Assembly: GCA_041659445.1 (NCBI GenBank)
Contig: JBAZYG010000001.1
Span: forward strand, 270,001 to 302,000
Direction: 5' to 3'
Length of the DNA stretch: 32,000 nt
From: Candidatus Saccharimonadota bacterium
GTDB taxonomy: Archaea; Nanobdellota; Nanobdellia; Pacearchaeales; GW2011-AR1
Shown piece by piece: positions 10,354 through 24,811 of the stretch. The notes beneath the pieces were generated by a model. The model worked only from the letters and a program-made list of their open reading frames with translations. It did no database searches and had not been told where the DNA came from. Numbering within the stretch: position 1 is the first letter of the stretch; each line of letters opens with the position of its first letter. The position numbers were made by a program, and so were the translations under genes.

Positions 10354-10655
10354 GAATAATTCCATTGTTAATTGTTTTAGCTTTAATGGTTATGCAAATA
10401 GGAATGGTTATTGCTGCAGACGAAGCTGATTTTGAGCAAGTTTTGCATCCTTTGACAACAATTTACAACTTAGTGAAATATGCAGCAACAATTATTGCAG
10501 GATTAGTCTTGCTTTTTTCAGGAATTACTTACATCACTAGTGGTTCAGATCCAGGAAAGCGTGAGAAAGCTAAGAATATGGCTATGTATGTTATAATCGG
10601 TCTTATTGTGATTTGGGCAGCACCTTTTGTGGTGGATTTAATTTTAGGAAACTAA
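10314..10655 (+). CDS. VirB2/TrbC/CedA1-like pilin candidate
   Basis: 113 aa. A basic leader plus hydrophobic segment ends in VIAAD, a signal-peptidase-like site. Two hydrophobic helices follow, joined by a short charged loop (TSGSDPGKREKAKN). This is the architecture of T4SS pilins. Confidence 0.5.
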   Translation: MAQKPSRIKQRRLRIIPLLIVLALMVMQIGMVIAADEADFEQVLHPLTTIYNLVKYAATIIAGLVLLFSGITYITSGSDPGKREKAKNMAMYVIIGLIVIWAAPFVVDLILGN

Positions 10656-10656
10656 A

Positions 10657-11040
10657 ATGAAAGGAAAGATTTTGTTTAATTTTTTATTTGCAGTTGCTTT
10701 TATTTTACCATTAGCAACTGCTTTTAATTGTACTGCATTAAATGGAGAGGAGCATAATTCTTGTATTTATATTGAAAATACAGATTGGTCTCAATCAGAC
10801 AAAGATTTAGTTATTCAAAATATTCTTGATTCAGGAGGGGTTTCACTTAATGGAGATTTTGAATCCATTTTTGATAAAGAAATAAATGATTCTATTAAAT
10901 TAAATAATATTGAGGAATCTGAATTAAAAATTGATAAAGAGAATAAGATATTTTTAATGAATTTTTCTTTAATTTCTTTGTTTGGATATTCTCTTTTCTC
11001 TTTTCTTAAAGGGTTTTATCTTAGATTCAAAAGAAAATGA
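10657..11040 (+). CDS. secreted/C-terminally anchored protein of the transfer module, hypothetical
   Basis: 127 aa. It has an N-terminal signal peptide (FLFAVAFILPLATAFN), an acidic Cys-containing ectodomain and a C-terminal TM helix. It starts 2 nt after the pilin stop and overlaps the next gene by 4 nt. Confidence 0.5.
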   Translation: MKGKILFNFLFAVAFILPLATAFNCTALNGEEHNSCIYIENTDWSQSDKDLVIQNILDSGGVSLNGDFESIFDKEINDSIKLNNIEESELKIDKENKIFLMNFSLISLFGYSLFSFLKGFYLRFKRK

Positions 11041-11858
11041 CTACTTGTGGAATTACTAATTTAGGTTCATGCTTAGTTGAAAAATTTTTTGAATTTATTG
11101 TTAATATATTAAACATGCCTGTTTCTCCTCTATTAAAATTAATAAACAATTTCATGATTGAACCTGTGAACATTAATCTTTTTGCAAGTACTTGGTCAAT
11201 AATTATTTACATTTTATCTTTATTTTATGGGATTTTTCTTTTAATTGTTGGATTTAAATTTTTAATTTCAGGACATTCTCCTGAAAAAAGAGAAGATGCT
11301 AAGAAAAATCTAGCCAACATTATAATAATGATGGTTTTAGTTCAAGCAAGTTTTTTTCTTTATGCTTTATGTTTAGATGTTGTTGCTTCAATGACTTCTG
11401 TGATTTTTAATTTAATTCCATCAGATTTCTTTTTAATTGCAACAGGAGGAATGGGAAATATTGGTTTAGATTTGGCTTTATTATTTCCTTATATTTTTAC
11501 CTTGTTAGCAACATTAATTTTTTTAGCATTAAGATATATTTGTGTTGGAGTTGGAGTTATTTTCTTTGCAATTGGAATTTTTCTTTATTTTTCAGGTTAT
11601 TTTAAATCATTTGGAAAATTAATTTTAAATTATTTAGGAGTTTTAATTTCTCTGCCTTTTATTTATTCAATTATTTTATTAGCATCATCTAAATTTTTAG
11701 AAATTAACACCTTTTCAGATGTTAAAATATTAGTTATGATTGGAGGATTTGGTCTTATTAATTTATTGACTATGTTTTTACTTTTATTTGTAATAGTTAA
11801 GGCTGCAAATTCAAAACCAGTAAATCAAATTGTAACGCTTGTAAAAGCAGTAGCATAA
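11037..11858 (+). CDS. polytopic membrane protein, VirB6/TrbL/CedA-like candidate
   Basis: 273 aa with about 6 TM helices. The position between the pilin and the VirB4 ATPase is typical for VirB6-type channel subunits. The first helical hairpin repeats the pilin loop motif (ISGHSPEKREDAKKN). Confidence 0.45.
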   Translation: MTTCGITNLGSCLVEKFFEFIVNILNMPVSPLLKLINNFMIEPVNINLFASTWSIIIYILSLFYGIFLLIVGFKFLISGHSPEKREDAKKNLANIIIMMVLVQASFFLYALCLDVVASMTSVIFNLIPSDFFLIATGGMGNIGLDLALLFPYIFTLLATLIFLALRYICVGVGVIFFAIGIFLYFSGYFKSFGKLILNYLGVLISLPFIYSIILLASSKFLEINTFSDVKILVMIGGFGLINLLTMFLLLFVIVKAANSKPVNQIVTLVKAVA

Positions 11859-11859
11859 A

Positions 11860-14778
11860 ATGTATGAAATACCGCAACAATTAGAATATAAAGAAAAAAT
11901 AGTCTTTGGATTAACTTTTCCACAATTAGCTTATGCTTTTGTATTTTTTCCTTTTGTATTTTCATTTTTGTTTAAAATAAATGCTAATATTTACACAAGA
12001 ATATTTTTAGCATTAATTCCAACACTTTTAGCTGTAGGATTTATGTTTTTTGATTTAAGTCAACATCTTAAAAATTGGTATTTTTGGTTAAAAACTCGAA
12101 AACTTAAAGAAGATAAATTAAAGAAAGTGTTAGAAATTGGAGAAATTAAAGATAATTTAATTCATTATAATAAAAAGAAAATTGCTGTTTTAAGAGTAGA
12201 ATCTTTAAATTTTTCAATAAAATCTCAAGGTGAACAAGAAGCAATAATGTTTTCATTTCAAAAATTCTTAAATTCAATTGACTTTCCAATACAAATTCTA
12301 ATGACTACTGAAACTTTGGATTTAGATATTTATCTTAAAAGTTTAGAGAAGAAATCATTAAATGAAAGAAATAAAGAAATTTTTAATTCTTATAAAGAGC
12401 ATATGCAGGATTTAATCAAACAAAATAGTGCAATGAATAGAAATTTTTATTTAGTAATTCCAGAATCTACAGATTTAAATATTCAAGTTAAACTTTGTGA
12501 AGAAAGGCTTCATAGTCTTAATCTTAAAACTTTTAGATTAAATGATGCTCAATTAAAAAGTATTTTTATTAAGATATTTAATGAAAATTCTAAGAATTTT
12601 CTTCCAAAAGAAATTAATAATTTTCCTGATTTTTTAGAGGTTGATAAAAAATTTCATAAAATAATTTATGCTCATGGATATCCTAGATCTGTTGAAAAAG
12701 GATTCTTAGATAAATTAATTAGTTGCTCTGGAAATTTTGATTTTTCTCTGCATATTATTCCTCAACCAATTGAAAAAACAATGATTTTATTAAATAGAGA
12801 GTTAAAAAAACAAAGAGCAGATCTTTATGCATCTAAACTAAAAAATCAATTTAATCCAAGTCTTGAAATAAAATATAAAGATACTAAAAATATTCTTGAA
12901 GATTTACAAAAAGGAAATGAAAAGCTGTTTAATATGGGTTTTTACATTAATTGTAGAGCAGATAGTTTAGATGAACTTAGATTATTAGTTAGAAAGATTG
13001 AATCAGAATTAAATTCTCTTTTAATTATTCCAAAGCAACCTAATTTTCAAATGATTCAAGGATTTAAATCATGCTTGCCTTTAGCTAAAGATTTTTTAAA
13101 AGTAACTAGAAATATAACAACCTCTGCTTTGTCTGCATTTTTTCCTTTTACTTCTTCTTTTTTTAAATTTGATGAAACAGGCATTTGGTTAGGATTAAAT
13201 AAAAACAATATTCCAATAATTAGAGATATTTTTAAATTATCAAATTCAAATGGAATTTGCTTAGCAAGTTCTGGAGCTGGAAAATCGTATATGGCTAAAT
13301 TGTTCATTACAAGGCATTTGTTAAACAATACAAAAGTTATGATTATTGATCCTCAAAGTGAATATAAAAATATAGTTTCAAAGTTTAATGGTCAAAGAAT
13401 TAATTTATCAAGAACTTCTGAAACAATGATTAATCCTCTTGATTTAATGGGGCATGATTATTCTGAAAAAAGGCTTTCTTTAATGGATTTAATGCCTGTA
13501 ATGTTAGGGCAATTAACAGAACCTCAAAAATCTTTTATTGATCAAGCTTTAACAGAAGCTTATGAAAGAAAAGGAATCTATATGAATGATAGGGCAAGTT
13601 GGGCAAATGAGCCCCCAATTTTGGGAGATGTCTTAAAAATCCTAGAAAAGATAGAGAAAAAAGCAATTAGCCTAGAAAAAACCACAATAAGGAGTTTAAT
13701 AAATCGTTTAAGATTATATGTTGATGGAGTTTTTTCTTTTTTAAACAGACATACAAATATTGATTTTAAAAATAATTTTGTATGCTTTGATATTGGAAAT
13801 ATGCCTAAACAAGTTAAGCCTACAATTATGTTTCTTGTTTTAGATTATGTTTATATGAAAATGAAAAGAGATCTTGAGAGAAAATTGCTGGTTATTGACG
13901 AAGCATGGACTTTACTTTCAAGAGCGGAAGAAGCATCTTATATTTTTGAAATTGTTAAGACTTGTAGAAAATTTAATATGGGGTTATTTTTAATTAATCA
14001 AGAAGTTGAAGGAATGCTAAATTCAGAAGCAGGAAGATCTGCTTTAGCAAATTCTTCATATACCATTTTGTTAAGGCAAAAACCTGCTGTAATTGAAAGT
14101 GTTCAAAAAGTATTTCATTTAAGTAATGTTGAAAGAATTGCTCTTTTAACTGCAGGAGTTGGAGAAGGAATTCTTTTAATGGAAGATGAGCATTCTGAAT
14201 TAAAAATAATTGCTTCAAAAGAAGAGCATAAGCAAATTACTACAAATGCTGACGAATTACTTGAAGCAGAATATGAAGAAAATTCGAAAAGTCAAAAGGT
14301 AAATATTAATGTTGATGAATTTCAGAGAGTTCATAAATCTAAAGATTTAACAAAAGAAGATAAAAAGTATTTATTAAAAAAAGGATTTAAAGAAGAATCT
14401 TTCAAAAGTCTTTCTTTAAATAAAAATGAAAATTATTTTGTTAAACCTAGATTTAATGAAACTTCTAAACATTTATTTGTGGTTTATGATATTAAAAATT
14501 ATTTTGAGAAAAAAGGGATTTCAGTAGAACTTTATGCAACAAAAAAACCAGATATTGTTTTTAATATTAAAAATAAAAAATTTGCAATTGAAGTTGAAAC
14601 TGGATCAATGTTAAATCAAAAGAAATTTTTTAAAGAAAAATTAAATTTACTAAATAAGAATTATGATAAATGGTTTTTTGTTGTAACAGACAGAAATAAA
14701 ACTAAATCTTATAAAAAATATGGAGAGTCAGTAGATTTAAGATATTTGAAACAGAGACTTTCTAAAATCCGTCGATAA
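11860..14778 (+). CDS. VirB4/TrbE-family conjugation ATPase with N-terminal VirB3/PrgI-like membrane segment and C-terminal PD-(D/E)xK-like domain
   Basis: 972 aa.
- N-terminus: KEKIVFGLTFPQLAY plus two TM helices, which is PrgI/VirB3-like.
- Walker A: GICLASSGAGKSYMAKL.
- Other ATPase-core segments: VMIIDPQSEY and GLFLINQ.
- Walker B: LLVIDEAWTLL.
- C-terminal ~120 aa: KKPDIVFNIKNKKFAIEVETGS. Confidence 0.85.
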   Translation: MYEIPQQLEYKEKIVFGLTFPQLAYAFVFFPFVFSFLFKINANIYTRIFLALIPTLLAVGFMFFDLSQHLKNWYFWLKTRKLKEDKLKKVLEIGEIKDNLIHYNKKKIAVLRVESLNFSIKSQGEQEAIMFSFQKFLNSIDFPIQILMTTETLDLDIYLKSLEKKSLNERNKEIFNSYKEHMQDLIKQNSAMNRNFYLVIPESTDLNIQVKLCEERLHSLNLKTFRLNDAQLKSIFIKIFNENSKNFLPKEINNFPDFLEVDKKFHKIIYAHGYPRSVEKGFLDKLISCSGNFDFSLHIIPQPIEKTMILLNRELKKQRADLYASKLKNQFNPSLEIKYKDTKNILEDLQKGNEKLFNMGFYINCRADSLDELRLLVRKIESELNSLLIIPKQPNFQMIQGFKSCLPLAKDFLKVTRNITTSALSAFFPFTSSFFKFDETGIWLGLNKNNIPIIRDIFKLSNSNGICLASSGAGKSYMAKLFITRHLLNNTKVMIIDPQSEYKNIVSKFNGQRINLSRTSETMINPLDLMGHDYSEKRLSLMDLMPVMLGQLTEPQKSFIDQALTEAYERKGIYMNDRASWANEPPILGDVLKILEKIEKKAISLEKTTIRSLINRLRLYVDGVFSFLNRHTNIDFKNNFVCFDIGNMPKQVKPTIMFLVLDYVYMKMKRDLERKLLVIDEAWTLLSRAEEASYIFEIVKTCRKFNMGLFLINQEVEGMLNSEAGRSALANSSYTILLRQKPAVIESVQKVFHLSNVERIALLTAGVGEGILLMEDEHSELKIIASKEEHKQITTNADELLEAEYEENSKSQKVNINVDEFQRVHKSKDLTKEDKKYLLKKGFKEESFKSLSLNKNENYFVKPRFNETSKHLFVVYDIKNYFEKKGISVELYATKKPDIVFNIKNKKFAIEVETGSMLNQKKFFKEKLNLLNKNYDKWFFVVTDRNKTKSYKKYGESVDLRYLKQRLSKIRR

Positions 14779-14831: not shown

Positions 14832-16283
14832 CTAAATAATCTTTTCTAATTTTTCAAATTCAGATAATAATTCTTTAACTTCTTTCTTTGCTTCTTCAAT
14901 AATAACTTTGCTCTGTCTGTGATCAACTTCTTTTTCCTTTTCTTTTTTATATCTGTTAATTGAAAGATCCCAGTCTTTTTCTTTAATTTCTTCAATTGGA
15001 ACAAAGAAATGTTTCTCAAATCTGCTTTTATTGTCTTCCTTATTTCTTTTTTCAAATCTTTCTAAAATATCTGGAATATCATTTTTATCTGGTTGTTCGG
15101 TTCTCTTATCATCTAAACTAAATCCGTCCGCTTCCATATTGTAAAACCAGACTTTTTCTGTTGGCTCTCCTTTTGTAAAGTAAAGAACTGCAGTTGATAC
15201 TCCTGCGTAGGGTTTGAATATTCCAGAAGGCATAGAAATAATAGCATCAAGACGGCACTTTTCTAATAAAATTTTTTTAATTGATTTGTGAGCATTTGAA
15301 TTACCAAATAAAACACCTTCTGGAACTATTACTGTACATCTTCCCCCAACTGAAAGAGAATTATACATAAGTTCTAAGAAAAGTAATTCTGTTTTACTTG
15401 TACTTATTGTAAGTTCATCTGATTTCTCACTTTCATTTATAGAGCCTTTGAAAGGAGGATTTGCTAAAACTAAATCGTAAACCCCATTTTCATTATATCT
15501 TTTTGATAGAGTATCTTCTCCAGTAATCTTAGGGTTTGTTATTCCATGCATCATCAAATTCATTACTGCAATTCTAACCATAGTTCTGTCAATATCATAC
15601 CCATAAAGAGACTCTTCATCAAGAATTTTCTTTTTTTCTGGAGTTAATGTGCTTACATTATTTTTTTGATTTGTTTTTAAAATATATTCGTAAGCATTTA
15701 CTAAGAACCCTGCTGTTCCACAAGCTGGATCTAAAATTCTATCTCCAAATTCTGGTCTTGCCAAATCAACCATCATCTTAATTATATGTCTTGGGGTTCG
15801 AAATTGTCCATTTTTTCCTGCAGTTTGAAGTTCAGAAAGAAGATATTCATAAATGTCTCCTTGAGTATCCTGGTTTTGTTCTTTAATATGTAAGTCATTA
15901 ATTATATTGACTGCTTCAATTAAAAGAGAGGCTGTTGGAAGAGAAAAACTTGCATCCTTCATATATCTGGCATAAGAGGAGTTTTCTTCACCCAAATTTC
16001 TCATAAAAGGAAAGACAACATCTCGAACATGAGCTAAAATTTTATCAGAGGAATATTCGCTCCAAACAGACCATTTACAATTTTCATGACCTTCAAAAAT
16101 AGATTTGTATTTAGTCCCCTTAAGGACTGCGTTTTGTTCTTCTAAAACATCCTTGTCCTCTAATTTTCTCATAAAAATTAAATAAGATATTTGTTCAATT
16201 GCTTGAAGAGGATTACTAATTCCTCCGCTCCAAAATTTATCCCATAACTTTCTTATTTTTGATTTAAATTCTGCATGTAACAT
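14832..16283 (-). CDS. hsdM: type I restriction-modification system methyltransferase subunit
   Basis: 483 aa. HsdM_N-like N-terminus (LWDKFWSGGISNPLQAIEQISYLIFMRKLED), motif I ILDPACGTAGFL and motif IV LANPPFKGS. Confidence 0.92.
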   Translation of the reverse strand: MLHAEFKSKIRKLWDKFWSGGISNPLQAIEQISYLIFMRKLEDKDVLEEQNAVLKGTKYKSIFEGHENCKWSVWSEYSSDKILAHVRDVVFPFMRNLGEENSSYARYMKDASFSLPTASLLIEAVNIINDLHIKEQNQDTQGDIYEYLLSELQTAGKNGQFRTPRHIIKMMVDLARPEFGDRILDPACGTAGFLVNAYEYILKTNQKNNVSTLTPEKKKILDEESLYGYDIDRTMVRIAVMNLMMHGITNPKITGEDTLSKRYNENGVYDLVLANPPFKGSINESEKSDELTISTSKTELLFLELMYNSLSVGGRCTVIVPEGVLFGNSNAHKSIKKILLEKCRLDAIISMPSGIFKPYAGVSTAVLYFTKGEPTEKVWFYNMEADGFSLDDKRTEQPDKNDIPDILERFEKRNKEDNKSRFEKHFFVPIEEIKEKDWDLSINRYKKEKEKEVDHRQSKVIIEEAKKEVKELLSEFEKLEKII

Positions 16284-16285
16284 AT

Positions 16286-17371
16286 TTATTGTTTTTCGTT
16301 ATCCAAGGGTTTATTTTTAATATTATTAGCTATTAAATCTACTTGTTTTTGAGAAAGATAATGAGATTTATAAAACAGCTTATGGCTATCGGTCATCAAA
16401 TTTAATTTATAATGATCTTCTGGGTGAATTAATCCAAAAATATGACCTATCTCATGAGCCAAATTTCTTCCTGTTAAATCCCTAAAAGTTAAATTAAGAT
16501 AAGATATTTTGTCATGCCTAAATATTGCGAAAGAGTGTCCACACAAACTACCTCTACCTGCGTTCTCACCACCACTAACAAAGATTATACTTTCATTAGG
16601 ACTATTATTTGTTATCCTATTTATTAAATCCATATACCCTTCTTCCCAGCATTCTGTTTCATTGTTTCCTTTGGAATATAAGATTGCTCTCTCTTTGTCA
16701 CTTAAATTAATATTCACATAATAAGTTTTATTGATTAAAACAGAGATATTATATTTGTTCCAAATTTTATCTGCTTCAAAGACATATTTATCTAAATCCT
16801 GCTTATTTATTTCATTATTTATAACATAAAAATTAAATTTTGTATCAAGATGATCTAAATTTATTCCCTTAGGTTCAGAAGGTAATGAGATATAAATGAC
16901 TAAACCAATCATAACTAGGGTTACTAAAACTAAAAATAATGAAATTGTATTAATATTTTCTTTTGGACTTTTTTGCAACATAAATAATATAAAAATAATT
17001 AGTGAACTAAATAAAACTCCTAATATTGTGATCAGGGGGTGTAATAATTTAAATGAATTTAACAATAATGAAATAAGTGAGAAGATTATTATAGAAAGGA
17101 AAAACAAATAACAGCTTACCAACAATTTTGGATCAAATTTTCTAAAGTTTATTTTTTTAAAAAATCCAATAAAATTCTTATTCCAATTATATCTTTTACC
17201 TGCCCAAACAAAAAAAGTATAAATCAAGACTAAAAACAATCCTAATAAAAAGATATATAACGCTGAACGCAAACCACTTTTAATTTCCAATCCATAATAT
17301 AAAACTATTCCCGCGATTATTCCTATAATCAAATTATCCCAATATTTTTCAAATATTTCTGTGAACTTCAT
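16286..17371 (-). CDS. membrane-anchored metzincin-type zinc metalloprotease (putative)
   Basis: 361 aa. There are about 5 N-terminal TM helices and then a soluble domain ending in LAHEIGHIFGLIHPEDHYKLNLM. That is HExxHxxGxxH plus a possible Met-turn. The gene is wedged between hsdS (1-nt gap) and hsdM (2-nt gap). Confidence 0.6.
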   Translation of the reverse strand: MKFTEIFEKYWDNLIIGIIAGIVLYYGLEIKSGLRSALYIFLLGLFLVLIYTFFVWAGKRYNWNKNFIGFFKKINFRKFDPKLLVSCYLFFLSIIIFSLISLLLNSFKLLHPLITILGVLFSSLIIFILFMLQKSPKENINTISLFLVLVTLVMIGLVIYISLPSEPKGINLDHLDTKFNFYVINNEINKQDLDKYVFEADKIWNKYNISVLINKTYYVNINLSDKERAILYSKGNNETECWEEGYMDLINRITNNSPNESIIFVSGGENAGRGSLCGHSFAIFRHDKISYLNLTFRDLTGRNLAHEIGHIFGLIHPEDHYKLNLMTDSHKLFYKSHYLSQKQVDLIANNIKNKPLDNEKQ

Positions 17372-17372: not shown

Positions 17373-18524
17373 TTACAAATCCCCCTTAAATCCTTTACTC
17401 ACAAGAGAATTAAATAATTCTTCGGAGTTTTGTTTAGTTTTGTTTAGTTTTTTTTTCATTTTTTCAATTTGTTCAACTATCTTTGCAAATTTTTGCTGAA
17501 GGAAGATAGGCGGAATAGGGATCTCAAAATTTCCTAAATCTCGTGGACTTAGTCTTGGGAGATTTGCACCAACACATAAAGAATTTGCTCGGTTTATATA
17601 AGTCTCTCGTCTTAGTAAATGAGCAATATAATATTTATTTGATTTACCTTTTTCTGGTCTGAGAGGAATTATATCTGTACTACAAACACCATTAAAATTA
17701 GGCAAAGCAATTTTATTTAGATAGGGTCTCAGTTTACCATAAAGGATACATTCATCATCAAAAAGAAATTTTGTACTCTTTAATTTTTGAGCTTGTGCAT
17801 CCAACTTTTCCAATATTCTTCCAGTTTGAGATTCTATATGTTCTAAACCAAGATAAAAATAATCTTTATTTATTTTTTCTGGAGAGATAATTTTTCTGAA
17901 TAGTGGACAGACTTCTTTTAATTTTATAATCTTAAATTTATTTTTTTCTTTCAAAAACATTTCATAAAAAAGAGTATTTAAGTATTCATCAAATAAGTCC
18001 TCAATTTTTTCTCCTCTCTGATTCAATTCCCAAGAATCATCTAAAATATTAACAACTCTTTCTTGTTCTTTTATGTCTAATTTTCCATTAGAGAATGGAA
18101 CAAAAATTTTTCTTTTTTGATATACAGAAAGATAATATCGTTTGTGAGTTGAAAAATTCAATTGGATACCTTTCATCATTAGAAAAACAAATTTTATATT
18201 TACATCTTTAGATTTTGGTGTTAATAATTTCATTGCACTTGATTTTACTTTAAATTTAAAATCAACAAATTTAGTGTCTGTGGTGAAATCATCAAAAAGA
18301 ATTACTGGAGGTTTTTCATAAATTCCATTTTTCTCTTCAGTATATCCTAAAATAAATGATTTGTTTGCAGTTAAAACTGGAACTGAAATTTTTGTTTTCT
18401 CTTTAAGTATTTCGCTTTGAACAATATAGTCTCCTGGTTGCTCATAATCCAAAAGTTCTCCTATTTCAATTTCTTTCCATTCAATTTGGTTAGTTTGTGT
18501 TTGTTTCATTTTAATTTTTTTCAA
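17373..18524 (-). CDS. hsdS: type I restriction-modification system specificity subunit
   Basis: 383 aa. It has two target-recognition halves, each followed by a helical conserved region (…EERVVNILDDSWELNQRGEKIEDLFDEYLNTLFYEMF… and …QQKFAKIVEQIEKMKKKLNKTKQNSEELFNSLVSKGF). The gene sits within the hsd operon. Confidence 0.85.
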   Translation of the reverse strand: MKKIKMKQTQTNQIEWKEIEIGELLDYEQPGDYIVQSEILKEKTKISVPVLTANKSFILGYTEEKNGIYEKPPVILFDDFTTDTKFVDFKFKVKSSAMKLLTPKSKDVNIKFVFLMMKGIQLNFSTHKRYYLSVYQKRKIFVPFSNGKLDIKEQERVVNILDDSWELNQRGEKIEDLFDEYLNTLFYEMFLKEKNKFKIIKLKEVCPLFRKIISPEKINKDYFYLGLEHIESQTGRILEKLDAQAQKLKSTKFLFDDECILYGKLRPYLNKIALPNFNGVCSTDIIPLRPEKGKSNKYYIAHLLRRETYINRANSLCVGANLPRLSPRDLGNFEIPIPPIFLQQKFAKIVEQIEKMKKKLNKTKQNSEELFNSLVSKGFKGDL

Positions 18525-20688
18525 ATATGATCTCCTTTAATTTTTTAACTTCTTCTTCATTAGGCTGATTTACTGCATAGGGGTTTAATATAATGTCTCC
18601 AACAAGGATGAATTTAATTTTTCCTTGAGGATCTTTTATTAATTGTCTTTTAAAATAAATTAATCCAGAAACTACTTTTTTATTTTTAACCAAAGGGTTA
18701 GGTTGTCTTATCCATTCCCCTTCAGTAGTTTCCCCAGTTTTGTTATTTCTATAAAATTGATAAGCTAATGTTCCAAAAAAACTATCTGCAATCATATATT
18801 TGTCTATAACCGAAGAACTTATATCTACAACAATAAAAAATAAATCTTTTCTCGTTCCTTTTTCCATTTCTTCAAAGGTCTTTGTAGAATAAAATTGACC
18901 TGATTTATTACTAAGAATATTATTGAGTTTATTTTTTATCGTAACTGCTCCATTATCTAAATGTAAACTTCTATCTCCATCTGAATTTTTAACCTCAAAG
19001 AATATATCCTTTTTATTTAATTTAATAGATAAATCCGCATAATTAATTTTATTTGGGATTTGTGGCTCTAAAATCATTTCAAAATATTGTTTTTGGGGCA
19101 AGAATCTATTTGAAAAAATAACCTCGCTAAAATTATCCCAAAATCTTTCTTCATATTCAAGAGAATCGAGTAATGTTTTGGTGTTATCATCATTATTTCT
19201 TTTATTTAAAATATCTTTTGAATTTTTTAAAAAATCTTCAAATTCATTCAGATAAGATTCTTTTAATTCTTTATCTCTTTTCCAATTACCCAACCAAAAT
19301 AAAGGACTATATCTTTTTTTGTCATATAACTCTTTTAATTTATGTTTAATTATCTTGTCTAATTCTGGAAATTCATTTAAAGACTTATTAATTTCATCAA
19401 AATTCAGCTCGGCTATTACATGATTTCGATATATTAATTGTTCTAATAATTCATCAGTGTAATCAATTAATTTGTAAAAATTCTTATTTCCTACAAAGTC
19501 ATTAAAAGAAGATTTATTTTCATTGATAAAATCTTTCGTTTCAGCTATACTTTCTATTTTTTGAGCTAAAGGTAAAAATAAATCAAATGCCTTATTATTA
19601 TCTGAATCTTTGTAAATTATTCCAATAATTTTACTAACAAGTTCGTAATAGAGTTTAGGATCCTTGTCAAAAATCTTTTTTTCCATTAATTCTCTTGAAG
19701 CAGATTCAACATTTTGAGAAGCCATTTTTTCAAAAATCCTTGGAAAGTTTTCAGTTTTTACTTTTTCAAAATTATCTAAAAAGTAATCTATAAACTTCTC
19801 ATTCTTTTTTACCAACTCTTGAATAGCCCAATCAAAATGCTGAACTTTGAATTCTAAATCTTTATTTATCCAATAGATAAATAGCTTGGATATTTTTTCA
19901 ATTTCGTCAGGGTAATCTATTAACGGATACATCATATCTCTAACAATCTCCCCATCAGAATCTTTACATAATTCTATTAATTCTAAAATATGTTCTTTTT
20001 CTAATTTAATTCCCACAGTCATCCAAAACAGTAATCTATTTACAGAGGAAATCTTTCGCTTAGCAAGTAATTTTATTTTATTATAGAAATAATATTTTTC
20101 ATTTTTATATAAGCATAAATAAAGCCCCATAAGCTCTGTCAATATTCTTTCATCAGAGAATAATTCTGTTTTATCTAAATAACTTTTAATTTCGAGGGGC
20201 AAAATTTCTTTTTCATATCTAACTAAAATTGCTTTTAATATTGTATTTCTCATTGGATAATCTGAATCTTTTTTAATTAATTCTTTTAAAGAGGTTTCAT
20301 CATGGAAAGCGTATCCTCCTAAAATTCTTCCAGAGATTATTTTAAGATCTATGTTGTCTGATTTATCCCGTATTAGATCATATAATCTTATTGCTATTTC
20401 TTGCTTTTCTTTTCCCACTTTTATTAACATCTCAAAAAAAGGTCCACTTGCCATGTCTCCTTTTATTTTTAAAAAGACTTTTTCTAAATAACTCAAATAT
20501 TTTTCATCGTCTGAAACCAAATCAAACAATACCTCAACAGATAACTGGAAATAATTCCAAATAGATTCTTGATTTATCTCATCTAATAAGACATATTTTT
20601 CTTCTTTAGTTATATCATCCTTTATCTTAAAATATTCTTCTTTTTGTTTATCAAATTCAAATCTAAATTGTTTAAATTTTTCAATCAT
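18511..20688 (-). CDS. large uncharacterised protein: ~540-aa all-helical repeat region plus C-terminal PD-(D/E)xK-like domain
   Basis: 725 aa with no Walker motifs. The C-terminal part has YADLSIKLNKKDIFFEVKN, with D552 and E565-x-K567 at classic PD-(D/E)xK spacing, followed by alternating strand/helix-like segments. It overlaps hsdS by 14 nt and the upstream gene by 8 nt. Confidence 0.5.
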   Translation of the reverse strand: MIEKFKQFRFEFDKQKEEYFKIKDDITKEEKYVLLDEINQESIWNYFQLSVEVLFDLVSDDEKYLSYLEKVFLKIKGDMASGPFFEMLIKVGKEKQEIAIRLYDLIRDKSDNIDLKIISGRILGGYAFHDETSLKELIKKDSDYPMRNTILKAILVRYEKEILPLEIKSYLDKTELFSDERILTELMGLYLCLYKNEKYYFYNKIKLLAKRKISSVNRLLFWMTVGIKLEKEHILELIELCKDSDGEIVRDMMYPLIDYPDEIEKISKLFIYWINKDLEFKVQHFDWAIQELVKKNEKFIDYFLDNFEKVKTENFPRIFEKMASQNVESASRELMEKKIFDKDPKLYYELVSKIIGIIYKDSDNNKAFDLFLPLAQKIESIAETKDFINENKSSFNDFVGNKNFYKLIDYTDELLEQLIYRNHVIAELNFDEINKSLNEFPELDKIIKHKLKELYDKKRYSPLFWLGNWKRDKELKESYLNEFEDFLKNSKDILNKRNNDDNTKTLLDSLEYEERFWDNFSEVIFSNRFLPQKQYFEMILEPQIPNKINYADLSIKLNKKDIFFEVKNSDGDRSLHLDNGAVTIKNKLNNILSNKSGQFYSTKTFEEMEKGTRKDLFFIVVDISSSVIDKYMIADSFFGTLAYQFYRNNKTGETTEGEWIRQPNPLVKNKKVVSGLIYFKRQLIKDPQGKIKFILVGDIILNPYAVNQPNEEEVKKLKEIIFEKN

Positions 20689-21349
20689 CTTCTTTTACCT
20701 CCTCAGTATAGCTATATTTTCTTTCAGGTTTCGCTGAAATCTTTTTTATTTTTTCTTTTGAAATAATCCAAATATCAGAACCATGAACTAATGGGTGACC
20801 TACGCAATATAAATTATCCACTGCAATATTCCCTAAACACCTGTTGCAAAAATCATAAAATCTTTCTCCCATATCCGAAAATTTAAGATTGTTTATATTA
20901 GTTAATTCTTCTTTTATTTCTCCAAGACGAGTATTCTCATTAAATGTTCCAATAAAATTTTTACAATTAACCGAATTTTTTATCTCCTTTGTTTCAAATT
21001 TATTATTTTTGTCTTTCCTTATCTGAAATCCTTTTTGAGAAGATTTGTCTATAACTAAAAATTGTTCATCTGTAATCGTGAGAAAAATATTTTTTAGTTT
21101 AATCTCAAGATATTTTTTAAAATCCTCAAAGTTGAGATATTGTTTTGCATCATCAATTATATCGCTTAAAATTTTTTCATCTCCAGAACCAACAAAAAAT
21201 AAATTATGATTAATTCCTTTTATTTTTTCAATACTATCTGAAAATACTGAGATATCGCTTTGAGATTCTGCTTTAAATTTAGAAACAGCTTTTTTGTCTG
21301 CAACTATAACCCAAGCGTCTTTTATTGGAAATGTAAATGCGAGAGTCAT
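20681..21349 (-). CDS. proteasome-beta/HslV-like Ntn-hydrolase candidate (Thr directly after Met)
   Basis: 222 aa. MTLAFTFPIKDAWVIVADKKAV...IEKIKGINHNLFFVGSGDEKI parallels the proteasome-beta/HslV N-terminus: T1, Asp/Glu17 and K-I-x-x-I...[AS]-G-x-x-x-D. Asp falls at mature position 17. This is a motif-level resemblance only. Confidence 0.4.
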   Translation of the reverse strand: MTLAFTFPIKDAWVIVADKKAVSKFKAESQSDISVFSDSIEKIKGINHNLFFVGSGDEKILSDIIDDAKQYLNFEDFKKYLEIKLKNIFLTITDEQFLVIDKSSQKGFQIRKDKNNKFETKEIKNSVNCKNFIGTFNENTRLGEIKEELTNINNLKFSDMGERFYDFCNRCLGNIAVDNLYCVGHPLVHGSDIWIISKEKIKKISAKPERKYSYTEEVKEDD

Positions 21350-21813
21350 TTTTTCTTCCTCTTTGATTTAGATAATAAATTGAAATTATGATTAATCATT
21401 AAATCCAAGAATATAAAATAAATTATCATAAAAATATGAACCCCAAATAAAATCTTTGAATAATTGTATGATATAACTGTTGAATAAATAAATTCTACAA
21501 TAAAAATAATACTTATAACTGCAAAAAATTTCCATGAATAAATATAATCAAATTCTTTTCCAGCATCATTTATTTGGTCTTTCCAATTTCTTAACAAAGG
21601 TTTGTTTTTATCTTTCTGTTTAAGTCTATTTTTCATCATTACCTTTATCTTTCCTTCTAAATCTGTTTTGTAAACTTCCATAATAGCAAGAATTGCTAAT
21701 CCTGCAAAGAATAACCACATAGGACTTTTTGTCAAATAAAAAGTAATCAACGGCAAAATAAATAATGCCTGATGAATCTTTTTCTTATCTGTGAAAAAAT
21801 CAATTATTTTCAT
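21346..21813 (-). CDS. small integral membrane protein (~4 TM), hypothetical
   Basis: 155 aa. Two hydrophobic hairpins are separated by a basic loop (MMKNRLKQKDKNKPLLRNWKDQ). ATGA overlaps occur at both ends. Confidence 0.5.
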   Translation of the reverse strand: MKIIDFFTDKKKIHQALFILPLITFYLTKSPMWLFFAGLAILAIMEVYKTDLEGKIKVMMKNRLKQKDKNKPLLRNWKDQINDAGKEFDYIYSWKFFAVISIIFIVEFIYSTVISYNYSKILFGVHIFMIIYFIFLDLMINHNFNLLSKSKRKKK

Positions 21814-22060: not shown

Positions 22061-24811
22061 CTATTTCCACTTTAAGCTATTACACTTTTGGACTAATTTC
22101 TCTAATTGTTCTTTACTAAACGCATCTAAAGGTCTTCCTTCTGCTAAGGGATGTTCTGCAAAATTCTTTAATTCAACATGCTTAGCTCTCACAAAAACCT
22201 GTTCCAATAATCTTAAAAATTTTAATTGCTGAGAATTATAATGCTCATTTTTATCCATCACAAATTTATCAAATTCCCATTTAATCATCTCTTGGGGGTC
22301 AGGCAATCCCTTGACTTCTAATAAATCTCTTAAAAATAAAATAAAGTCTTTACTTTGTTGAATATTGTCAATTGTCAACATAGGATTTAATTCTCTTAGT
22401 TTCTTTTCAATAACTAAAAGTTCTTTTGATGTAACCCCTTCACCATCTTTAATTTTTTGCATTAAAGAATTATTACTTAAGAAAGTCTTGAAATCTTCAT
22501 CTTCTTTAAGTTCCATTGCTTCTTTCTCAACTTTCAGAACTACATCGGGAGCATTAACTCTTATCATTCCTTTTCTTTCCTCTTCATAAAAAATCATTAA
22601 AGGAGAAATTTCTCTAACTAAAAAATCAACATCTTCAAAAGTAATATCCTCCCAGAAAGGTTCTTTTTGAATTCTTATAAGATCGTCTCTTTTTTGTTTT
22701 ATTGCATCTAAATTTTTATCCCAAATTGCTTCTGCTCTTGTAACAACAAATTCTTCAATCTTAGCAATTTTGTTTTTATTTCCTGTTTTAATGCAATCAA
22801 AGAGTTTAACACATTGAGAGATAAAACCATAAACTTTTGAATTCTCCGACGGAGTATAAATTAAAAGAGGGGCTATTTCATTTCTTAATTCTTCAATATG
22901 TTCCTTTAAATCAAATTTGGAAGAGATGACTTTTTTAATTATGTTTTTCTTTTCAATAACCAAAGGAGATTCAATATCAATTTCCTTAATTGTGTCTATG
23001 ATTTGTTTCTCTACTACTTTTCTTTCTTTTTCACTTAGATTCTTTTCTAAAGTATCAACTTGTTCTAAAAAGATTCTTGTCTTAGCATCTGTTCCAGAGG
23101 ATTTTTGCTTTATAGCGTTCAATTTATGAACCAATATATTTGAGTAATCTCCAAACTTAAAGTCTAATATTAAAAAATCTTCTTTTATGTGCTGTCCATC
23201 TTTATCTGTTGGCAACCATTCTTTATTTTCACAAGCAGATAAACTTCTTGTTCCTCTTCCTAACATTTGCCAGAATCTGATAGAAGACATTACGGGTTTA
23301 ACAAAAACTAAGTTCATTACTTCAGGAACATCAACCCCAGTATCTAAAACTCCAACAGATAAAGCAATTCTTGGGCTATCTCTTTTTTCAAATCTCTTAA
23401 CTTCATCCATATAACGAGATTTGTCCGAAGTAATAACTTTTACATCCTTTGCCAAAGAAGGATAAAGTCTTTGGAATAATTTTTCCAAAGATTCTGCATG
23501 TTTTATACTTGCACAGAAGAATATACTTTTGCAGGGTCTATTATCATCTGATTTATAACACCGATCTACAAATTCTCGGATAATTAATTCATTAGTCTTT
23601 TCATCTGTAAAAAATCTTTCAAATTTAGAACCTGGTGTTTGAAATTTCTCTGGATCTTCTTCTTGTTGCTTTAATGCTTGTTGTAATTCTTTATTCAATT
23701 TTTTCCCTTCAATTCCTAATGAAAGAACACTTGTCTCAATAATTTCTGCTACATAAGGAGCTAATATCTTATCTCTTACTGCTGAATCATAGTCATACTT
23801 GAATGTGGGTTTTTCATTATTACAATTAAATAAATCAAAAGTATTTCTTGTTTCCTCTGAAGAAGGTGTTGCAGTTAGTCCAACTTTTAACGCATCAAAA
23901 TATTTGAAAATATCATTATTTTTATCATAGTAAGAACGGTGTGCTTCATCAAAGATAATTAAGTCAAATGCTCCTGGACCAAATTTTTCATAAAACTTTC
24001 CTCTTGGTTTTTGAGGAGACATTAAAGTTTGAATTGTGGAAACATAAAATCTTGCACTGCTTGAATAACCTTCCTCATTTAATTCACAAACCGGTGTTTC
24101 TGGAAAAAATTTCTTAAATCCTTTTTCTTTAGCTTGATTCCCTAAAGAAATTCTATCAACAACAAATAAAACTTTTTGAGCATATTCTGATTTTATTAAA
24201 CAATCTATTAAAGCCATTGCAACTCTTGTTTTTCCTGTTCCTGTAGCCATATTAATTAAAGCCTCTCGATGTCCCTTAGAAAAGTGTTCTAATACTATCT
24301 TAACTGCTTCAACACATGTTTTTCTATTTAAAATAGTAGAACTTACCTTAACATTTACAGGATCCTTTCTTTTTTTCATCAAACTGATTATCCTATGTAA
24401 ATCTTTTTGTGAAAATGGTAAGAGAACTTTTCTTCTCCTATCTAAGTCATCAACATAATACCAATTTGTTCCATTAGTTAAGAAAATAGGAATTTTGATT
24501 TTAATTTGTTTTTCAATATCTTCTCTATAAGTCCTTGCCTGAATTTCTCCTTTTTCAACGCTCACTGAAGTTTTTTTTGCTTCTACAATTGCGAGAGGGC
24601 TTCTATCTTCATCTAATAATAAATAGTCTATAAATCGGTCAACATTTTTTTCTATTCCAACCTCAAGACCTACATATTCTTTAGTTAAAAAATTAGATTT
24701 AACTGGATTAATCTCTTCCTTGACATAATGTCCTTTAACTTTCCATCCTGTTCTTTCTAAAATTGGATCTATCAATTCTTTTCTCGTTTCTTTCTCAGAG
24801 AGATTTGTCAT
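22061..24811 (-). CDS. hsdR: type I restriction enzyme endonuclease/translocase subunit
   Basis: 916 aa.
- N-terminal HSDR_N nuclease: RKELIDPILERTGW and DYLLLD...AIVEAKK.
- SF2 motif I: NMATGTGKTRVA.
- SF2 motif II: LIIFDEAHRS.
- Later helicase motifs: GLTATP and QMLGRGTR.
- C-terminal EcoEI_R_C-like helical tail. Confidence 0.92.
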   Translation of the reverse strand: MTNLSEKETRKELIDPILERTGWKVKGHYVKEEINPVKSNFLTKEYVGLEVGIEKNVDRFIDYLLLDEDRSPLAIVEAKKTSVSVEKGEIQARTYREDIEKQIKIKIPIFLTNGTNWYYVDDLDRRRKVLLPFSQKDLHRIISLMKKRKDPVNVKVSSTILNRKTCVEAVKIVLEHFSKGHREALINMATGTGKTRVAMALIDCLIKSEYAQKVLFVVDRISLGNQAKEKGFKKFFPETPVCELNEEGYSSSARFYVSTIQTLMSPQKPRGKFYEKFGPGAFDLIIFDEAHRSYYDKNNDIFKYFDALKVGLTATPSSEETRNTFDLFNCNNEKPTFKYDYDSAVRDKILAPYVAEIIETSVLSLGIEGKKLNKELQQALKQQEEDPEKFQTPGSKFERFFTDEKTNELIIREFVDRCYKSDDNRPCKSIFFCASIKHAESLEKLFQRLYPSLAKDVKVITSDKSRYMDEVKRFEKRDSPRIALSVGVLDTGVDVPEVMNLVFVKPVMSSIRFWQMLGRGTRSLSACENKEWLPTDKDGQHIKEDFLILDFKFGDYSNILVHKLNAIKQKSSGTDAKTRIFLEQVDTLEKNLSEKERKVVEKQIIDTIKEIDIESPLVIEKKNIIKKVISSKFDLKEHIEELRNEIAPLLIYTPSENSKVYGFISQCVKLFDCIKTGNKNKIAKIEEFVVTRAEAIWDKNLDAIKQKRDDLIRIQKEPFWEDITFEDVDFLVREISPLMIFYEEERKGMIRVNAPDVVLKVEKEAMELKEDEDFKTFLSNNSLMQKIKDGEGVTSKELLVIEKKLRELNPMLTIDNIQQSKDFILFLRDLLEVKGLPDPQEMIKWEFDKFVMDKNEHYNSQQLKFLRLLEQVFVRAKHVELKNFAEHPLAEGRPLDAFSKEQLEKLVQKCNSLKWK

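What the first reader, a model, noticed from the sequence alone, without database searches (positions are those of the whole stretch)
20681..21349. Proteasome-beta/HslV-like protein with an unprocessed Thr1 inside a restriction operon
The ORF has only one possible ATG near its 5' end, and Thr follows it immediately (MTLAFTFPIKDAWVIVADKKAV). After Met removal this exposes Thr1 and places Asp at mature position 17. A later K-I-K-G-I-x7-V-G-S-G-D-E segment follows. This mirrors the T1 / D(E)17 / K33 ... G-x-x-x-D layout of proteasome beta subunits and HslV, which also starts at Thr without a propeptide. No unfoldase ATPase partner is present. A threonine peptidase as a component of an R-M-linked module would be unusual.
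Basis: inference. Interest (0 to 1): 0.7.

Follow-up and report, generated by a model that had tools for sequence, protein, structure and literature searches.

The report
Proteasome-like enzyme in restriction operons
A small gene inside a DNA-restriction operon of a tiny archaeon encodes a very divergent relative of the proteasome's catalytic subunit, always paired with a large unknown protein and usually found next to restriction-modification genes, which suggests an unstudied protein-cutting module linked to anti-virus defence.

Summary
The ORF is real: 20681-21349, minus strand, 222 aa, starting MTLAFTF. No sequence library recognises it (Pfam, NCBIfam, PADLOC, PHROGs, PDB). An AlphaFold2 model built on 22 homologues is confident (pLDDT 86, pTM 0.87). 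Foldseek returns about 900 PDB hits, and the top 50 are all 20S proteasome subunits. Across 29 homologues, down to 18% identity, the only invariant residues are Met1, Thr2, Asp18, Lys42 and Gly134. Profile alignment places these on proteasome Thr1, Asp/Glu17, Lys33 and the G-S-G loop. All 24 homologues examined start with an initiator codon followed directly by Thr.

New here: the gene is always followed, usually with a 4-20 nt overlap, by an orphan protein of about 730 aa. In 21 of 26 informative loci, all from DPANN archaea, the pair sits inside or directly next to R-M genes of types I, II, IIG or III-like. In otherwise orthologous operons (HsdR and HsdM 89% identical, partner 74%) the Thr1 gene is swapped for a subfamily only 27% identical.

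The most likely function is an R-M-embedded accessory defence module that uses a Thr1 peptidase. This function is inferred, not shown. The partner's fold and the oligomeric state were not determined.

The parts
20681..21349 (-). Proteasome-beta/HslV-like Ntn (Thr1) hydrolase homologue, 222 aa, subfamily A (MTLAFTF...ADKK). Catalytic-candidate codons: Thr2 21346-21344, Asp18 21298-21296, Lys42 21226-21224, Gly56 21184-21182, Gly134 20950-20948.
   Evidence: ORF. AF2 pLDDT 86 / pTM 0.87. Foldseek PDB top 50 are all 20S proteasome subunits. Invariant M1/T2/D18/K42/G134 in 29 sequences. hhalign register with T1/D17/K33/G47.
18511..20688 (-). Obligate partner, 725 aa, an orphan family. Its start overlaps the Thr1 gene's end by 8 nt. 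The C-terminal ~250 aa carry many invariant polar residues: S521-E522, D552, E565, R573, Q598, D622-x-S-x-S626, R661, K680.
   Evidence: No hit in Pfam, NCBIfam, PADLOC, PHROGs or PDB. A family of ~40 proteins of 720-760 aa. Alignment A5. Always directly downstream of a Thr1 homologue.
21346..21813 (-). 155-aa hydrophobic (membrane-like) ORF directly upstream, with an ATGA overlap to the Thr1 gene. It is variable cargo and is not conserved in other loci. It lies inside the segment that is swapped relative to the orthologous operon L016.
   Evidence: sequence. No family hits. DNA homology to L016 breaks at 21796 and resumes at 20709.
22061..24811 (-). Type I restriction subunit HsdR (916 aa), first gene of the operon, followed by a 247-nt gap.
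   Evidence: Pfam HSDR_N, ResIII, SWI2_SNF2, Helicase_C, EcoEI_R_C. 89.5% identical to the L016 HsdR.
17373..18524 (-). Type I specificity subunit HsdS (383 aa). It overlaps the partner's end by 14 nt.
   Evidence: Pfam Methylase_S, two stretches.
16286..17371 (-). 361-aa membrane protein with a metzincin-type HEIGHIFGLIH motif, embedded between hsdS and hsdM. Variable cargo, not part of the conserved pair.
   Evidence: Sequence. Only sub-threshold Reprolysin/Peptidase_M10/archaemetzincin hits, E 0.03-0.2.
14832..16283 (-). Type I methyltransferase HsdM (483 aa), last gene of the operon.
   Evidence: Pfam N6_Mtase E=1e-65, HsdM_N.

Best explanation
The ORF encodes a highly divergent member of the proteasome-beta/HslV-like branch of Ntn hydrolases. 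It has no propeptide. Removal of the initiator Met would expose Thr1, which sits with Asp17, a Lys equivalent to Lys33, and a Gly equivalent to Gly47. It is therefore most likely an active threonine peptidase, or possibly a transpeptidase. It is not a free-standing gene. It is the first gene of a two-gene cassette that appears translationally coupled to an orphan ~730-aa protein, and the cassette is found only in DPANN archaea (Pacearchaeota, Woesearchaeota, 'Nanoarchaeota'). The cassette behaves as mobile cargo that is nearly always inserted in, or attached to the end of, R-M operons of unrelated types, on the same strand. The proposed mechanism is inferred. The large partner binds the Thr1 enzyme in place of an AAA+ unfoldase and acts as scaffold, sensor or substrate-delivery subunit. 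On a trigger such as infection or inhibition of the neighbouring R-M system, Thr1-dependent proteolysis either activates the partner's conserved C-terminal enzymatic domain or destroys a target protein. This would give a second line of defence, as other R-M-embedded systems do (PrrC, TgvAB). Shown here: the fold, the conserved catalytic residues, the obligate pairing, the R-M linkage and the cassette swapping. Inferred: catalysis, complex formation, the defence role and its trigger.
For: Fold: AF2 pLDDT 86, pTM 0.87, with residues 1-20 at pLDDT 94-96. Foldseek PDB gives 904 hits at E<=1e-3, and the top 50 are all proteasome subunits. BFVD hits include phage 'Proteasome beta type-2' and HslV.

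Catalytic residues: only M1/T2/D18/K42/G134 are invariant in 29 sequences, and G54/G56 are nearly invariant. hhalign places them on T1/D17/K33/G47. In subfamily B, G-S falls on G128-S129 and T-G-H on S169-G-G. Subfamily B is homologous to subfamily A at prob 98.7%. The best, sub-threshold, sequence hits are proteasome subunits: PF00227 at E=0.008 for the L018 protein, PDB alpha6 and beta7, and the PHROG HslV family at E=0.1.

Thr1 exposure: 24 of 24 homologues have an initiator codon followed by Thr.

Pairing: a Thr1 gene lies directly upstream of the partner in every locus that holds that DNA. 12 of 15 pairs overlap by 4-20 nt.

R-M linkage: 21 of 26 informative distinct loci. These comprise type I in several gene orders, MmeI-like IIG, N6_N4 MTase plus Res, and DpnII/Dam.

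Other defence-type cargo shares these operons: SLFN_AlbA_2, NYN, DUF3800 and DUF2779/Cas4-like genes.

Diversification: window and L016 have HsdR 89.5%, HsdM 89% and partner 74% identical, but Thr1 protein 27% and HsdS 34%. Six locus pairs have partner >=65% and Thr1 <=27% identical.

Precedent for embedded defence genes: Payne et al. 2024 (10.1101/2024.01.29.577857) and TgvAB (PMC11411939).
Against: No sequence-profile method reaches significance against proteasome/HslV. hhalign prob is 3-24%. The window protein has no Pfam, NCBIfam or PDB sequence hit. Homology therefore rests on a predicted structure from a 22-sequence alignment plus residue conservation.

Equivalents of proteasome Asp166 and Ser169 were not identified with confidence. 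Active-site distances could not be measured.

The partner's fold is unknown. Its E565-x-K motif has a variable Lys, and no nuclease or vWA profile matches it.

No PADLOC model hits either protein, so there is no link to any tested defence system. Five loci have no R-M gene in the available flank. No experimental data exist. Proteasome-type enzymes are usually active only as rings, and ring formation was not assessed.
Confidence: 0.55

Rival explanations
1. An R-M housekeeping protease for restriction alleviation. The Thr1 peptidase, with its partner as adaptor, would degrade restriction subunits when the host chromosome is at risk. This would play the role ClpXP plays for HsdR of EcoKI in E. 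coli (established knowledge: Makovets, Doronina and Murray 1999), in organisms that lack Clp.
For: The cassette is co-oriented and tightly packed with hsd genes, between hsdR and hsdS or hsdM. It is probably co-transcribed with hsdS and hsdM in the window, given overlapping or abutting ORFs from 21813 to 14832.
Against: The associated R-M systems share no common restriction subunit: HsdR, MmeI-like fusion, type III-like Res, DpnII. A substrate-specific regulator would therefore need many specificities. Five loci have the pair without R-M genes. Most type I operons lack the pair. Swapping of the Thr1 gene between operons with 89% identical HsdR argues against co-evolution with HsdR.
Confidence: 0.12
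2. A sequence-specific transpeptidase or ligase, like connectase, rather than a protease. A monomeric Thr1 enzyme would modify or join its partner, or a target, instead of degrading proteins.
For: There is no unfoldase and no propeptide. Helices H1 and H2 are short (11 and 14 residues in the model). Subfamily A has an extended S3/S4 hairpin at the site where connectase carries its specificity insertion (Fuchs et al. 2021, PMC8665760). The one-to-one pairing with a single large protein resembles an enzyme-substrate pair.
Against: There is no similarity to DUF2121/connectase. H1 and H2 are present, whereas connectase lacks them. The S3/S4 extension is a beta-hairpin, not two helices, and it is absent in subfamily B. 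Nothing here distinguishes hydrolysis from transpeptidation.
Confidence: 0.1
3. A selfish or neutral mobile two-gene cassette with a non-defence function. It would accumulate in R-M operons only because these loci tolerate insertions (a 'genomic sink').
For: The window's R-M operon lies in an integrated element: tRNA-Asp, integrase, T4SS pilins and a VirB4/TraG-like ATPase. L023 has an integrase nearby. Insertion points within operons vary.
Against: No recombinase or transposase travels with the pair. Orientation always matches the R-M genes. The partner was not found in 2.9 million viral contigs. Both proteins show strong purifying selection on catalytic-type residues.
Confidence: 0.1
4. Not a functional Ntn hydrolase. 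The fold prediction would be an artefact of a shallow alignment, or the protein would be a catalytically dead scaffold like proteasome alpha subunits.
For: Sequence-profile scores are insignificant. The single-sequence AF2 model was poor, with pLDDT 37.
Against: Five AF2 models agree, with pLDDT 83.9-86.0. Foldseek prob is 1.00 for hundreds of proteasome chains. The only invariant residues coincide with the catalytic set. Dead homologues such as alpha subunits lose Thr1 and carry N-terminal extensions, whereas here Thr follows the initiator in 24 of 24 cases.
Confidence: 0.05

Closest known systems
HslV (ClpQ), bacterial proteasome-like peptidase
   Same: It is of similar size (176 aa against 222 aa). 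In E. coli, Thr follows the initiator Met directly (from my own knowledge). Both have the T1...D17...K33...G motif layout. Phage HslV-like models are among the Foldseek hits.
   Different: No HslU or other AAA+ gene accompanies it. It matches no HslV profile, apart from a PHROG HslV hit at E=0.1 for one homologue. It has an extra C-terminal strand S12 and a longer S3/S4 hairpin. It is archaeal (DPANN), whereas HslV is bacterial.
20S proteasome beta subunits (Pfam PF00227, MEROPS T1)
   Same: They are the best structural matches (TM 0.5-0.63, prob 1.0). The order of strands and helices is the same. The catalytic Thr1/Asp17/Lys33/Gly47 equivalents are conserved.
   Different: Sequence identity is 9-18%. 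The window protein has no PF00227 hit. It has no propeptide and no alpha-subunit partner. H1 and H2 are shorter. It is encoded in an R-M operon with a 730-aa partner. A canonical PF00227 gene exists separately on the L003 contig.
The 22 'new proteasome homologs' of Fuchs, Alva and Lupas 2021 (WPH, PHI, ACC, PMI and others; PMC8665760), plus Anbu, BPH and connectase
   Same: It is the same kind of object: a very divergent prokaryotic proteasome-like protein with a conserved T1/D17/K33/G47 and no propeptide, detectable only by structure or HMM methods.
   Different: That study reported no informative genomic context and no conserved partner for any of its families. This family has both. The described archaeal families differ from the model: WPH and ACC have coiled-coil C-termini, and PHI has a helical insertion. 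DPANN taxa are not mentioned in that paper. Identity with one of those families could not be excluded, because their profiles are not available here.
PrrC/EcoprrI, TgvAB and other 'embedded' defence genes (Payne et al. 2024)
   Same: The cassette is nested between hsd genes of a type I R-M operon, in the same orientation. It is a two-gene module like TgvAB.
   Different: The proteins are unrelated. There is no ABC ATPase, anticodon nuclease or GmrSD domain, and no PADLOC model hits. The cassette also attaches to type II, IIG and III-like systems. A defence activity is untested.

Membership tests
Proteasome-like Ntn hydrolases (proteasome beta / HslV / Anbu / BPH superfamily) | Four-layer alpha-beta-beta-alpha Ntn sandwich with the proteasome order of strands S1-S10/11 and helices H1-H4 | tested here: met
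   The AF2 model (pLDDT 86, pTM 0.87) has elements E4-9, E12-18, E20-26, E32-39, E44-46, E50-55, H58-68, H74-87, E96-101, E106-112, E118-123, H142-151, H162-179, E191-196, E200-207 and E213-220. The Foldseek PDB top 50 are all proteasome subunits, prob 1.00.
Proteasome-like Ntn hydrolases (proteasome beta / HslV / Anbu / BPH superfamily) | N-terminal nucleophile: Thr (or Ser) as the first residue of the mature chain | tested here: met
   Thr2 follows the only possible start codon. It is invariant in 29 sequences. An initiator codon followed by Thr is seen in 24 of 24 loci. Actual Met removal is inferred from methionine aminopeptidase specificity and is not shown.
Proteasome-like Ntn hydrolases (proteasome beta / HslV / Anbu / BPH superfamily) | Asp/Glu17 and Lys33 completing the catalytic triad, and Gly47 forming the oxyanion hole | tested here: met
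   D18 and K42 are invariant and G56 is nearly invariant. hhalign aligns them to D/E17, K33 and G47. They sit at the end of S2, the start of S4 and the S5/H1 junction in the model. Three-dimensional distances were not measurable.
Proteasome-like Ntn hydrolases (proteasome beta / HslV / Anbu / BPH superfamily) | Supporting residues Ser129, Asp166 and Ser169 (G-S-G loop and D-x-x-S-G-G loop) | tested here: inconclusive
   An invariant G134 is followed by T/C/S/G. In subfamily B, G-S aligns with G128-S129 and T-G-H with S169-G-G. No clearly conserved Asp166 equivalent was found.
Proteasome-like Ntn hydrolases (proteasome beta / HslV / Anbu / BPH superfamily) | Significant sequence-profile match to PF00227 or an HslV model | tested here: not met
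   The window protein has no Pfam or NCBIfam hit. The best results are PF00227 at E=0.008, below cut-off, for the L018 homologue and hhalign prob 3-24%. The published divergent families also miss these models, so this failure lowers sequence-level support without excluding membership.
Proteasome-like Ntn hydrolases (proteasome beta / HslV / Anbu / BPH superfamily) | Self-compartmentalising ring assembly (hexameric or heptameric double rings) and peptidase activity | not testable with these tools
   No multimer prediction is available and no model coordinates are exposed. Connectase shows that the family also contains monomers.
HslVU system | Adjacent or co-occurring HslU AAA+ unfoldase | tested here: not met
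   No AAA+ gene lies next to the pair in any of about 26 informative loci. The neighbour is always the ~730-aa orphan protein.
Connectase (DUF2121) | Two-helix insertion between S3 and S4, loss of H1/H2, restriction to methanogens, DUF2121 profile match | tested here: not met
   H1 and H2 are present. The S3/S4 region is a beta-hairpin. There is no DUF2121 hit. The taxa are DPANN.
R-M-embedded accessory defence systems (PrrC-like / 'guilt by embedding') | Gene cassette nested between, or co-oriented with, the genes of a known defence system | tested here: met
   In the window the order is HsdR-[155]-Thr1-partner-HsdS-[361]-HsdM. 21 of 26 informative loci are R-M-linked.
R-M-embedded accessory defence systems (PrrC-like / 'guilt by embedding') | Demonstrated protection against viruses or plasmids, or activation by anti-restriction factors | not testable with these tools
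   This needs experiments. No PADLOC model matches.

The most novel reading that the evidence does not exclude
A proteasome-fold threonine peptidase is the catalytic core of a previously unrecognised, DPANN-specific immune (or R-M-guarding) system. It works with a dedicated ~730-aa sensor/effector partner instead of an AAA+ unfoldase. The Thr1 subunit is exchanged as a cassette, as the HsdS specificity subunit is, under an arms race with viruses. This would be the first defence system built on the proteasome fold and the first proteasome homologue outside HslV, Anbu and connectase with a function-revealing genomic context.
Probability: 0.35. Interest if true: 0.8.

Novelty: new variant of a known kind. 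Interest (0 to 1): 0.64.

Why it matters
Fuchs, Alva and Lupas (2021) catalogued 22 divergent proteasome homologues. They stressed that none had a genomic context hinting at function and that none had an identifiable partner. This family has both. It has an obligate partner whose gene usually overlaps its own, and it is strongly linked to R-M systems of four different types.

If the inference holds, it would do three things. It would add a new catalytic fold to the set of protease-based immune effectors. It would give a concrete, testable function to an orphan branch of the proteasome family. It would show how genome-reduced DPANN archaea, which depend heavily on R-M systems, add further defences inside those operons.

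The swap of the Thr1 gene between otherwise orthologous operons is a sign of diversifying selection and is worth following up. The enzyme may also have biotechnological interest, as connectase, a proteasome homologue, became a ligation tool.

Tried and rejected
1. Direct sequence annotation of the 222-aa protein gave nothing significant. I tried Pfam, NCBIfam, PADLOC, PHROGs, and PDB by phmmer and hmmsearch.

2. The single-sequence AF2 model was unusable, with pLDDT 37. This used one of the two structure jobs, so the partner could not be modelled.

The register was correct but the probabilities were only 3%, 24% and 11%. I report this as consistent, not as proof.

4. For the partner, Pfam on all 25 family members, a PDB profile search, NCBIfam, PADLOC and PHROGs gave nothing.

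5. I considered a PD-(D/E)xK reading of S521-E522/D552/E565-x-K. I did not adopt it, because the Lys is replaced by T, A or V in many members and because hhalign against the window's own HsdR nuclease domain and the CoiA-like domain showed nothing.

6. I noticed a vWA/MIDAS-like D622-x-S-x-S626 motif. No VWA profile hits it, and the spacing to the next conserved Thr/Ser does not fit.

7. I looked for an att repeat that would delimit the tRNA-Asp/integrase element and found none within the window.

8. A scan of viral contigs for the partner found none.

9. Literature searches found no paper linking proteasome homologues to R-M or anti-phage defence. The supplements of the Fuchs paper contain no DPANN entries or these N-terminal sequences.

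10. I considered whether the 972-aa Walker-A protein (11860-14778) could be the missing unfoldase and rejected it. It is a VirB4/TraG-type conjugation ATPase on the opposite strand and is absent from other loci.


Full report
OBSERVATION. The ORF exists as described: window 20681-21349, minus strand, 222 aa, beginning MTLAFTFPIKDAWVIVADKKAV. It begins at the first possible start codon after the upstream stop, so no N-terminal extension is possible. The next Met is residue 160. I read the key codons from the DNA: ATG 21349-21347, Thr2 21346-21344, Asp18 21298-21296, Lys42 21226-21224, Gly56 21184-21182, Gly134 20950-20948. The start codon overlaps the stop of a 155-aa hydrophobic ORF (ATGA). 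The stop lies 8 nt inside the next ORF (725 aa, 18511-20688). Pfam confirms a type I R-M operon around it: HsdR 22061-24811, HsdS 17373-18524, HsdM 14832-16283. From 21813 down to 14832 the six ORFs overlap or abut, so they probably form one transcription unit.

WHAT THE PROTEIN IS. No sequence library recognises it: Pfam, PADLOC, NCBIfam, PHROGs, or PDB by phmmer and profile search. Homologues are few. There were 13 in the 5.8-billion-protein index, 10 in the exhaustive 1.84-billion representative search, and 19 with a profile. All are 183-235 aa (most 216-235), and the named ones come from Pacearchaeota-type MAGs.

A single-sequence AlphaFold2 model was useless, with pLDDT 37. With the 22-sequence alignment A3 the model is confident: pLDDT 86, pTM 0.87, five models at 83.9-86.0, and residues 1-20 at 94-96. 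Foldseek against PDB gave 904 matches at E<=1e-3. The top 50 are all 20S proteasome subunits, mostly beta, with prob 1.00 and TM 0.5-0.63. Against BFVD the best matches include phage proteins named 'Proteasome beta type-2' and 'HslV'.

The order of elements in the model is S1, S2, S3, S4, S5, H1, H2, S6-S9, H3, H4, S10-S12. This is the proteasome-beta order. H1 and H2 are shortened, the S3/S4 hairpin is extended, and there is no H5.

CATALYTIC RESIDUES. I widened the family by taking the small ORFs found upstream of partner homologues. This revealed a second subfamily, B (MTSIILF...GDTQH...). It is clearly homologous to the window's subfamily A (hhalign prob 98.7%, E 4e-16). Two more divergent groups also appeared.

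In the 29-sequence alignment, which goes down to 18% identity, the only invariant columns are M1, T2, D18, K42 and G134. F52, G54, G56 and P186 are nearly invariant.

Profile-profile alignment to a small proteasome-beta/HslV alignment puts T2 on T1, D18 on D/E17, K42 on K33 and G56 on G47. For subfamily B, a 163-column alignment also puts G-S on G128-S129 and T-G-H on S169-G-G.

These alignments are not statistically significant (prob 3%, 24% and 11%). The best raw sequence hits are sub-threshold proteasome matches: PF00227 at E=0.008 for the L018 protein and PDB alpha6 and beta7. The case therefore rests on a predicted fold, on the fact that the only invariant residues are exactly the catalytic set, and on their placement at the expected secondary-structure junctions.

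In all 24 loci checked, the residue after the initiator codon is Thr. One locus uses TTG as initiator. Thr is a good penultimate residue for methionine aminopeptidase (established knowledge), so exposure of Thr1 without autoprocessing is plausible. It is not shown.

CONTEXT. The downstream 725-aa protein is an orphan family of about 40 members of 720-760 aa. It has no hit in any library. It is 55-66% identical between the window, L001 and L003.

I gathered 41 loci from three sources: the look-up of encoding contigs, GTDB genomes and JGI metagenomes. I annotated them with phmmer, using R-M proteins whose Pfam assignment was known, plus Pfam spot checks.

Every locus that contains the DNA upstream of the partner has a Thr1 homologue there, on the same strand. 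12 of 15 pairs examined overlap by 4-20 nt.

The distinct informative loci break down as follows:
- 14 are inside or at the edge of type I R-M operons, in several gene orders (R-T-P-S-M, M-S-T-P-R, M-T-P-S, and R-MS fusion-T-P).
- 2 follow an MmeI-like type IIG enzyme.
- 2 follow an N6_N4 methylase plus Res helicase-endonuclease pair (type III-like).
- 3 sit beside DpnII/Dam/N4-N6 methylase genes.
- 5 have no R-M gene in the available flank. Their neighbours are glycosyltransferases; an integrase plus Fic; a DACNV-DAC protein; or a PDDEXK_1 nuclease.

The taxa are Pacearchaeota, Woesearchaeota and 'Nanoarchaeota', that is, DPANN. The partner was not found in IMG/VR viral contigs. On the L003 contig a normal PF00227 proteasome gene lies 10 kb away, so the cassette protein is additional to the housekeeping proteasome.

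CASSETTE SWAPPING. The window operon and L016 are orthologous. HsdR is 89.5% identical, HsdM 89% and the partner 74%, and blastn homology covers all three. In contrast the Thr1 proteins are 27% identical (subfamily A against B) and HsdS is 34% identical. DNA homology stops at window 21796 and resumes at 20709, which is 28 nt before the Thr1 stop codon. The replaced segment therefore holds the upstream small ORF plus the Thr1 gene.

Across all loci, six pairs combine a partner identity of 65-81% with a Thr1 identity of 20-27%. The Thr1 subunit thus diversifies, or is exchanged, much faster than its partner, in the same way as the specificity subunit HsdS.

HOW IT MOST LIKELY WORKS. The following are shown here:
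- the proteasome-like fold;
- the conserved Thr1/Asp17/Lys/Gly set;
- the absence of a propeptide;
- the absence of an AAA+ neighbour;
- obligate gene pairing, usually with overlapping ORFs, with a 730-aa protein;
- the strong R-M linkage across unrelated R-M types;
- the cassette exchange.

The following are inferred. The protein is an active Thr1 peptidase. It forms a complex with the partner, which replaces an unfoldase as scaffold, sensor or substrate-delivery subunit. The pair is an accessory immune module of the 'embedded' kind described by Payne et al. 2024, of which PrrC in EcoprrI and TgvAB in the V. cholerae type I operon are examples.

Two observations argue against a regulator tuned to one restriction subunit. 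The pair attaches to R-M systems that share no common subunit, and it sometimes occurs without any. They favour an autonomous module, or a guard that responds to something common to R-M failure such as anti-restriction DNA mimics.

The partner's C-terminal ~250 residues carry a dense set of invariant polar residues: S521-E522, D552, E565, R573, Q598, D622-x-S-x-S626, D629-E630, R661 and K680. This suggests an enzymatic or metal-binding domain. Its fold is untested. A PD-(D/E)xK reading is weakened by a variable Lys, and a MIDAS reading by wrong spacing and no profile support.

The rivals are restriction alleviation (analogous to ClpXP acting on HsdR), a connectase-like transpeptidase, a selfish cassette in a genomic sink, and a dead scaffold or model artefact. 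Each is listed with evidence and refutation tests.

COMPARISON WITH WHAT IS KNOWN. The protein works like, and most probably belongs to, the proteasome-like Ntn-hydrolase superfamily. It is not a canonical proteasome beta subunit: there is no PF00227 match, no propeptide and no alpha partner. It is not HslV: there is no HslU and it is archaeal. It is not connectase: H1 and H2 are present and there is no DUF2121 match.

It resembles in kind the 22 divergent families of Fuchs, Alva and Lupas 2021. Their archaeal families (WPH, ACC, PHI) are described with coiled-coil C-termini or helical insertions that this model lacks. That paper mentions no DPANN taxa, no R-M context and no partner. Formal exclusion would need their HMMs, which are not available here.

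I found no paper linking a proteasome homologue to R-M or anti-phage defence. PADLOC-DB v2 has no model for either protein.

VERDICT. The finding is best classed as a new variant of a known kind: a new, very divergent proteasome-like family with an unprecedented obligate partner and R-M-embedded context. Confidence that it is a proteasome-fold Ntn hydrolase with an intact catalytic set is about 0.85-0.9. Confidence in the defence-module mechanism is about 0.35-0.45. Interest is 0.64.

Noticed in passing
window 20709-21796, compared with L016 6564-7980: In two otherwise orthologous type I operons (HsdR 89.5%, HsdM 89% and partner 74% identical) the segment holding a small upstream ORF plus the Thr1 gene is replaced by an unrelated small ORF plus a Thr1 gene of another subfamily (27% identical). 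Homology resumes 28 nt before the Thr1 stop codon.
   Followed up: partly
window 16286-17371 (-): A 361-aa protein with several hydrophobic segments and a metzincin-type HEIGHIFGLIH motif sits between hsdS and hsdM. It has only sub-threshold Reprolysin/Peptidase_M10/archaemetzincin hits (E 0.03-0.2). This is a second putative protease embedded in the same R-M operon. It is not conserved in other loci.
   Followed up: partly
window 7700-14778: tRNA-Asp (7700-7774) is followed by a tyrosine integrase (7858-9012), an orphan N6_N4 DNA methylase (9152-9811, -), two T4SS pilin-like genes (10314-10655 and 11037-11858) and a 972-aa VirB4/TraG-type ATPase with a C-terminal CoiA-like nuclease domain (11860-14778). 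It looks like an integrated conjugative-type element in a Pacearchaeota genome, and it probably includes the R-M operon. No att repeat was found inside the window.
   Followed up: partly
L001 5630-7141, L011 10290-11753, L012 10295-11755, L019 4409-5899, L029 1-1518, L040 948-1628: A DUF2779 gene, or in L040 a Cas4-like PDDEXK_1 nuclease gene, recurs beside or within a few kb of the Thr1+partner pair in six loci, on either strand. It may be a third, facultative component.
   Followed up: no
L003 7381-8712, L005 3858-4667, L016 13180-14592, L019 11335-12687: Schlafen/AlbA_2 genes, three of the four with an HATPase_c_4 domain (L016 also has HTH domains), are repeatedly embedded in the same DPANN type I operons. 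NYN (L001, L003) and DUF3800 (L016) genes are embedded too. These operons are hot spots for variable cargo.
   Followed up: no
window 18511-20688 (-), residues 480-725 of the partner: The partner has a dense cluster of invariant polar residues: S521-E522, D552, E565-x-(K/T/A), R573, Q598, a MIDAS-like D622-x-S-x-S626, D629-E630, R661 and K680. No profile supports a nuclease or vWA assignment.
   Followed up: partly
L023 3253-3903; L015 573-1172: One Thr1 homologue (L023) uses a TTG initiator directly before Thr. Another (L015) is only 199 aa, has a divergent C-terminus and lies 69 nt before the partner gene, so it may be decaying.
   Followed up: no
L003 1-174 (-): A canonical PF00227 proteasome subunit gene lies about 10 kb from the cassette on the same DPANN contig. 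The cassette enzyme is therefore an extra paralogue-like protein, not the housekeeping proteasome.
   Followed up: no
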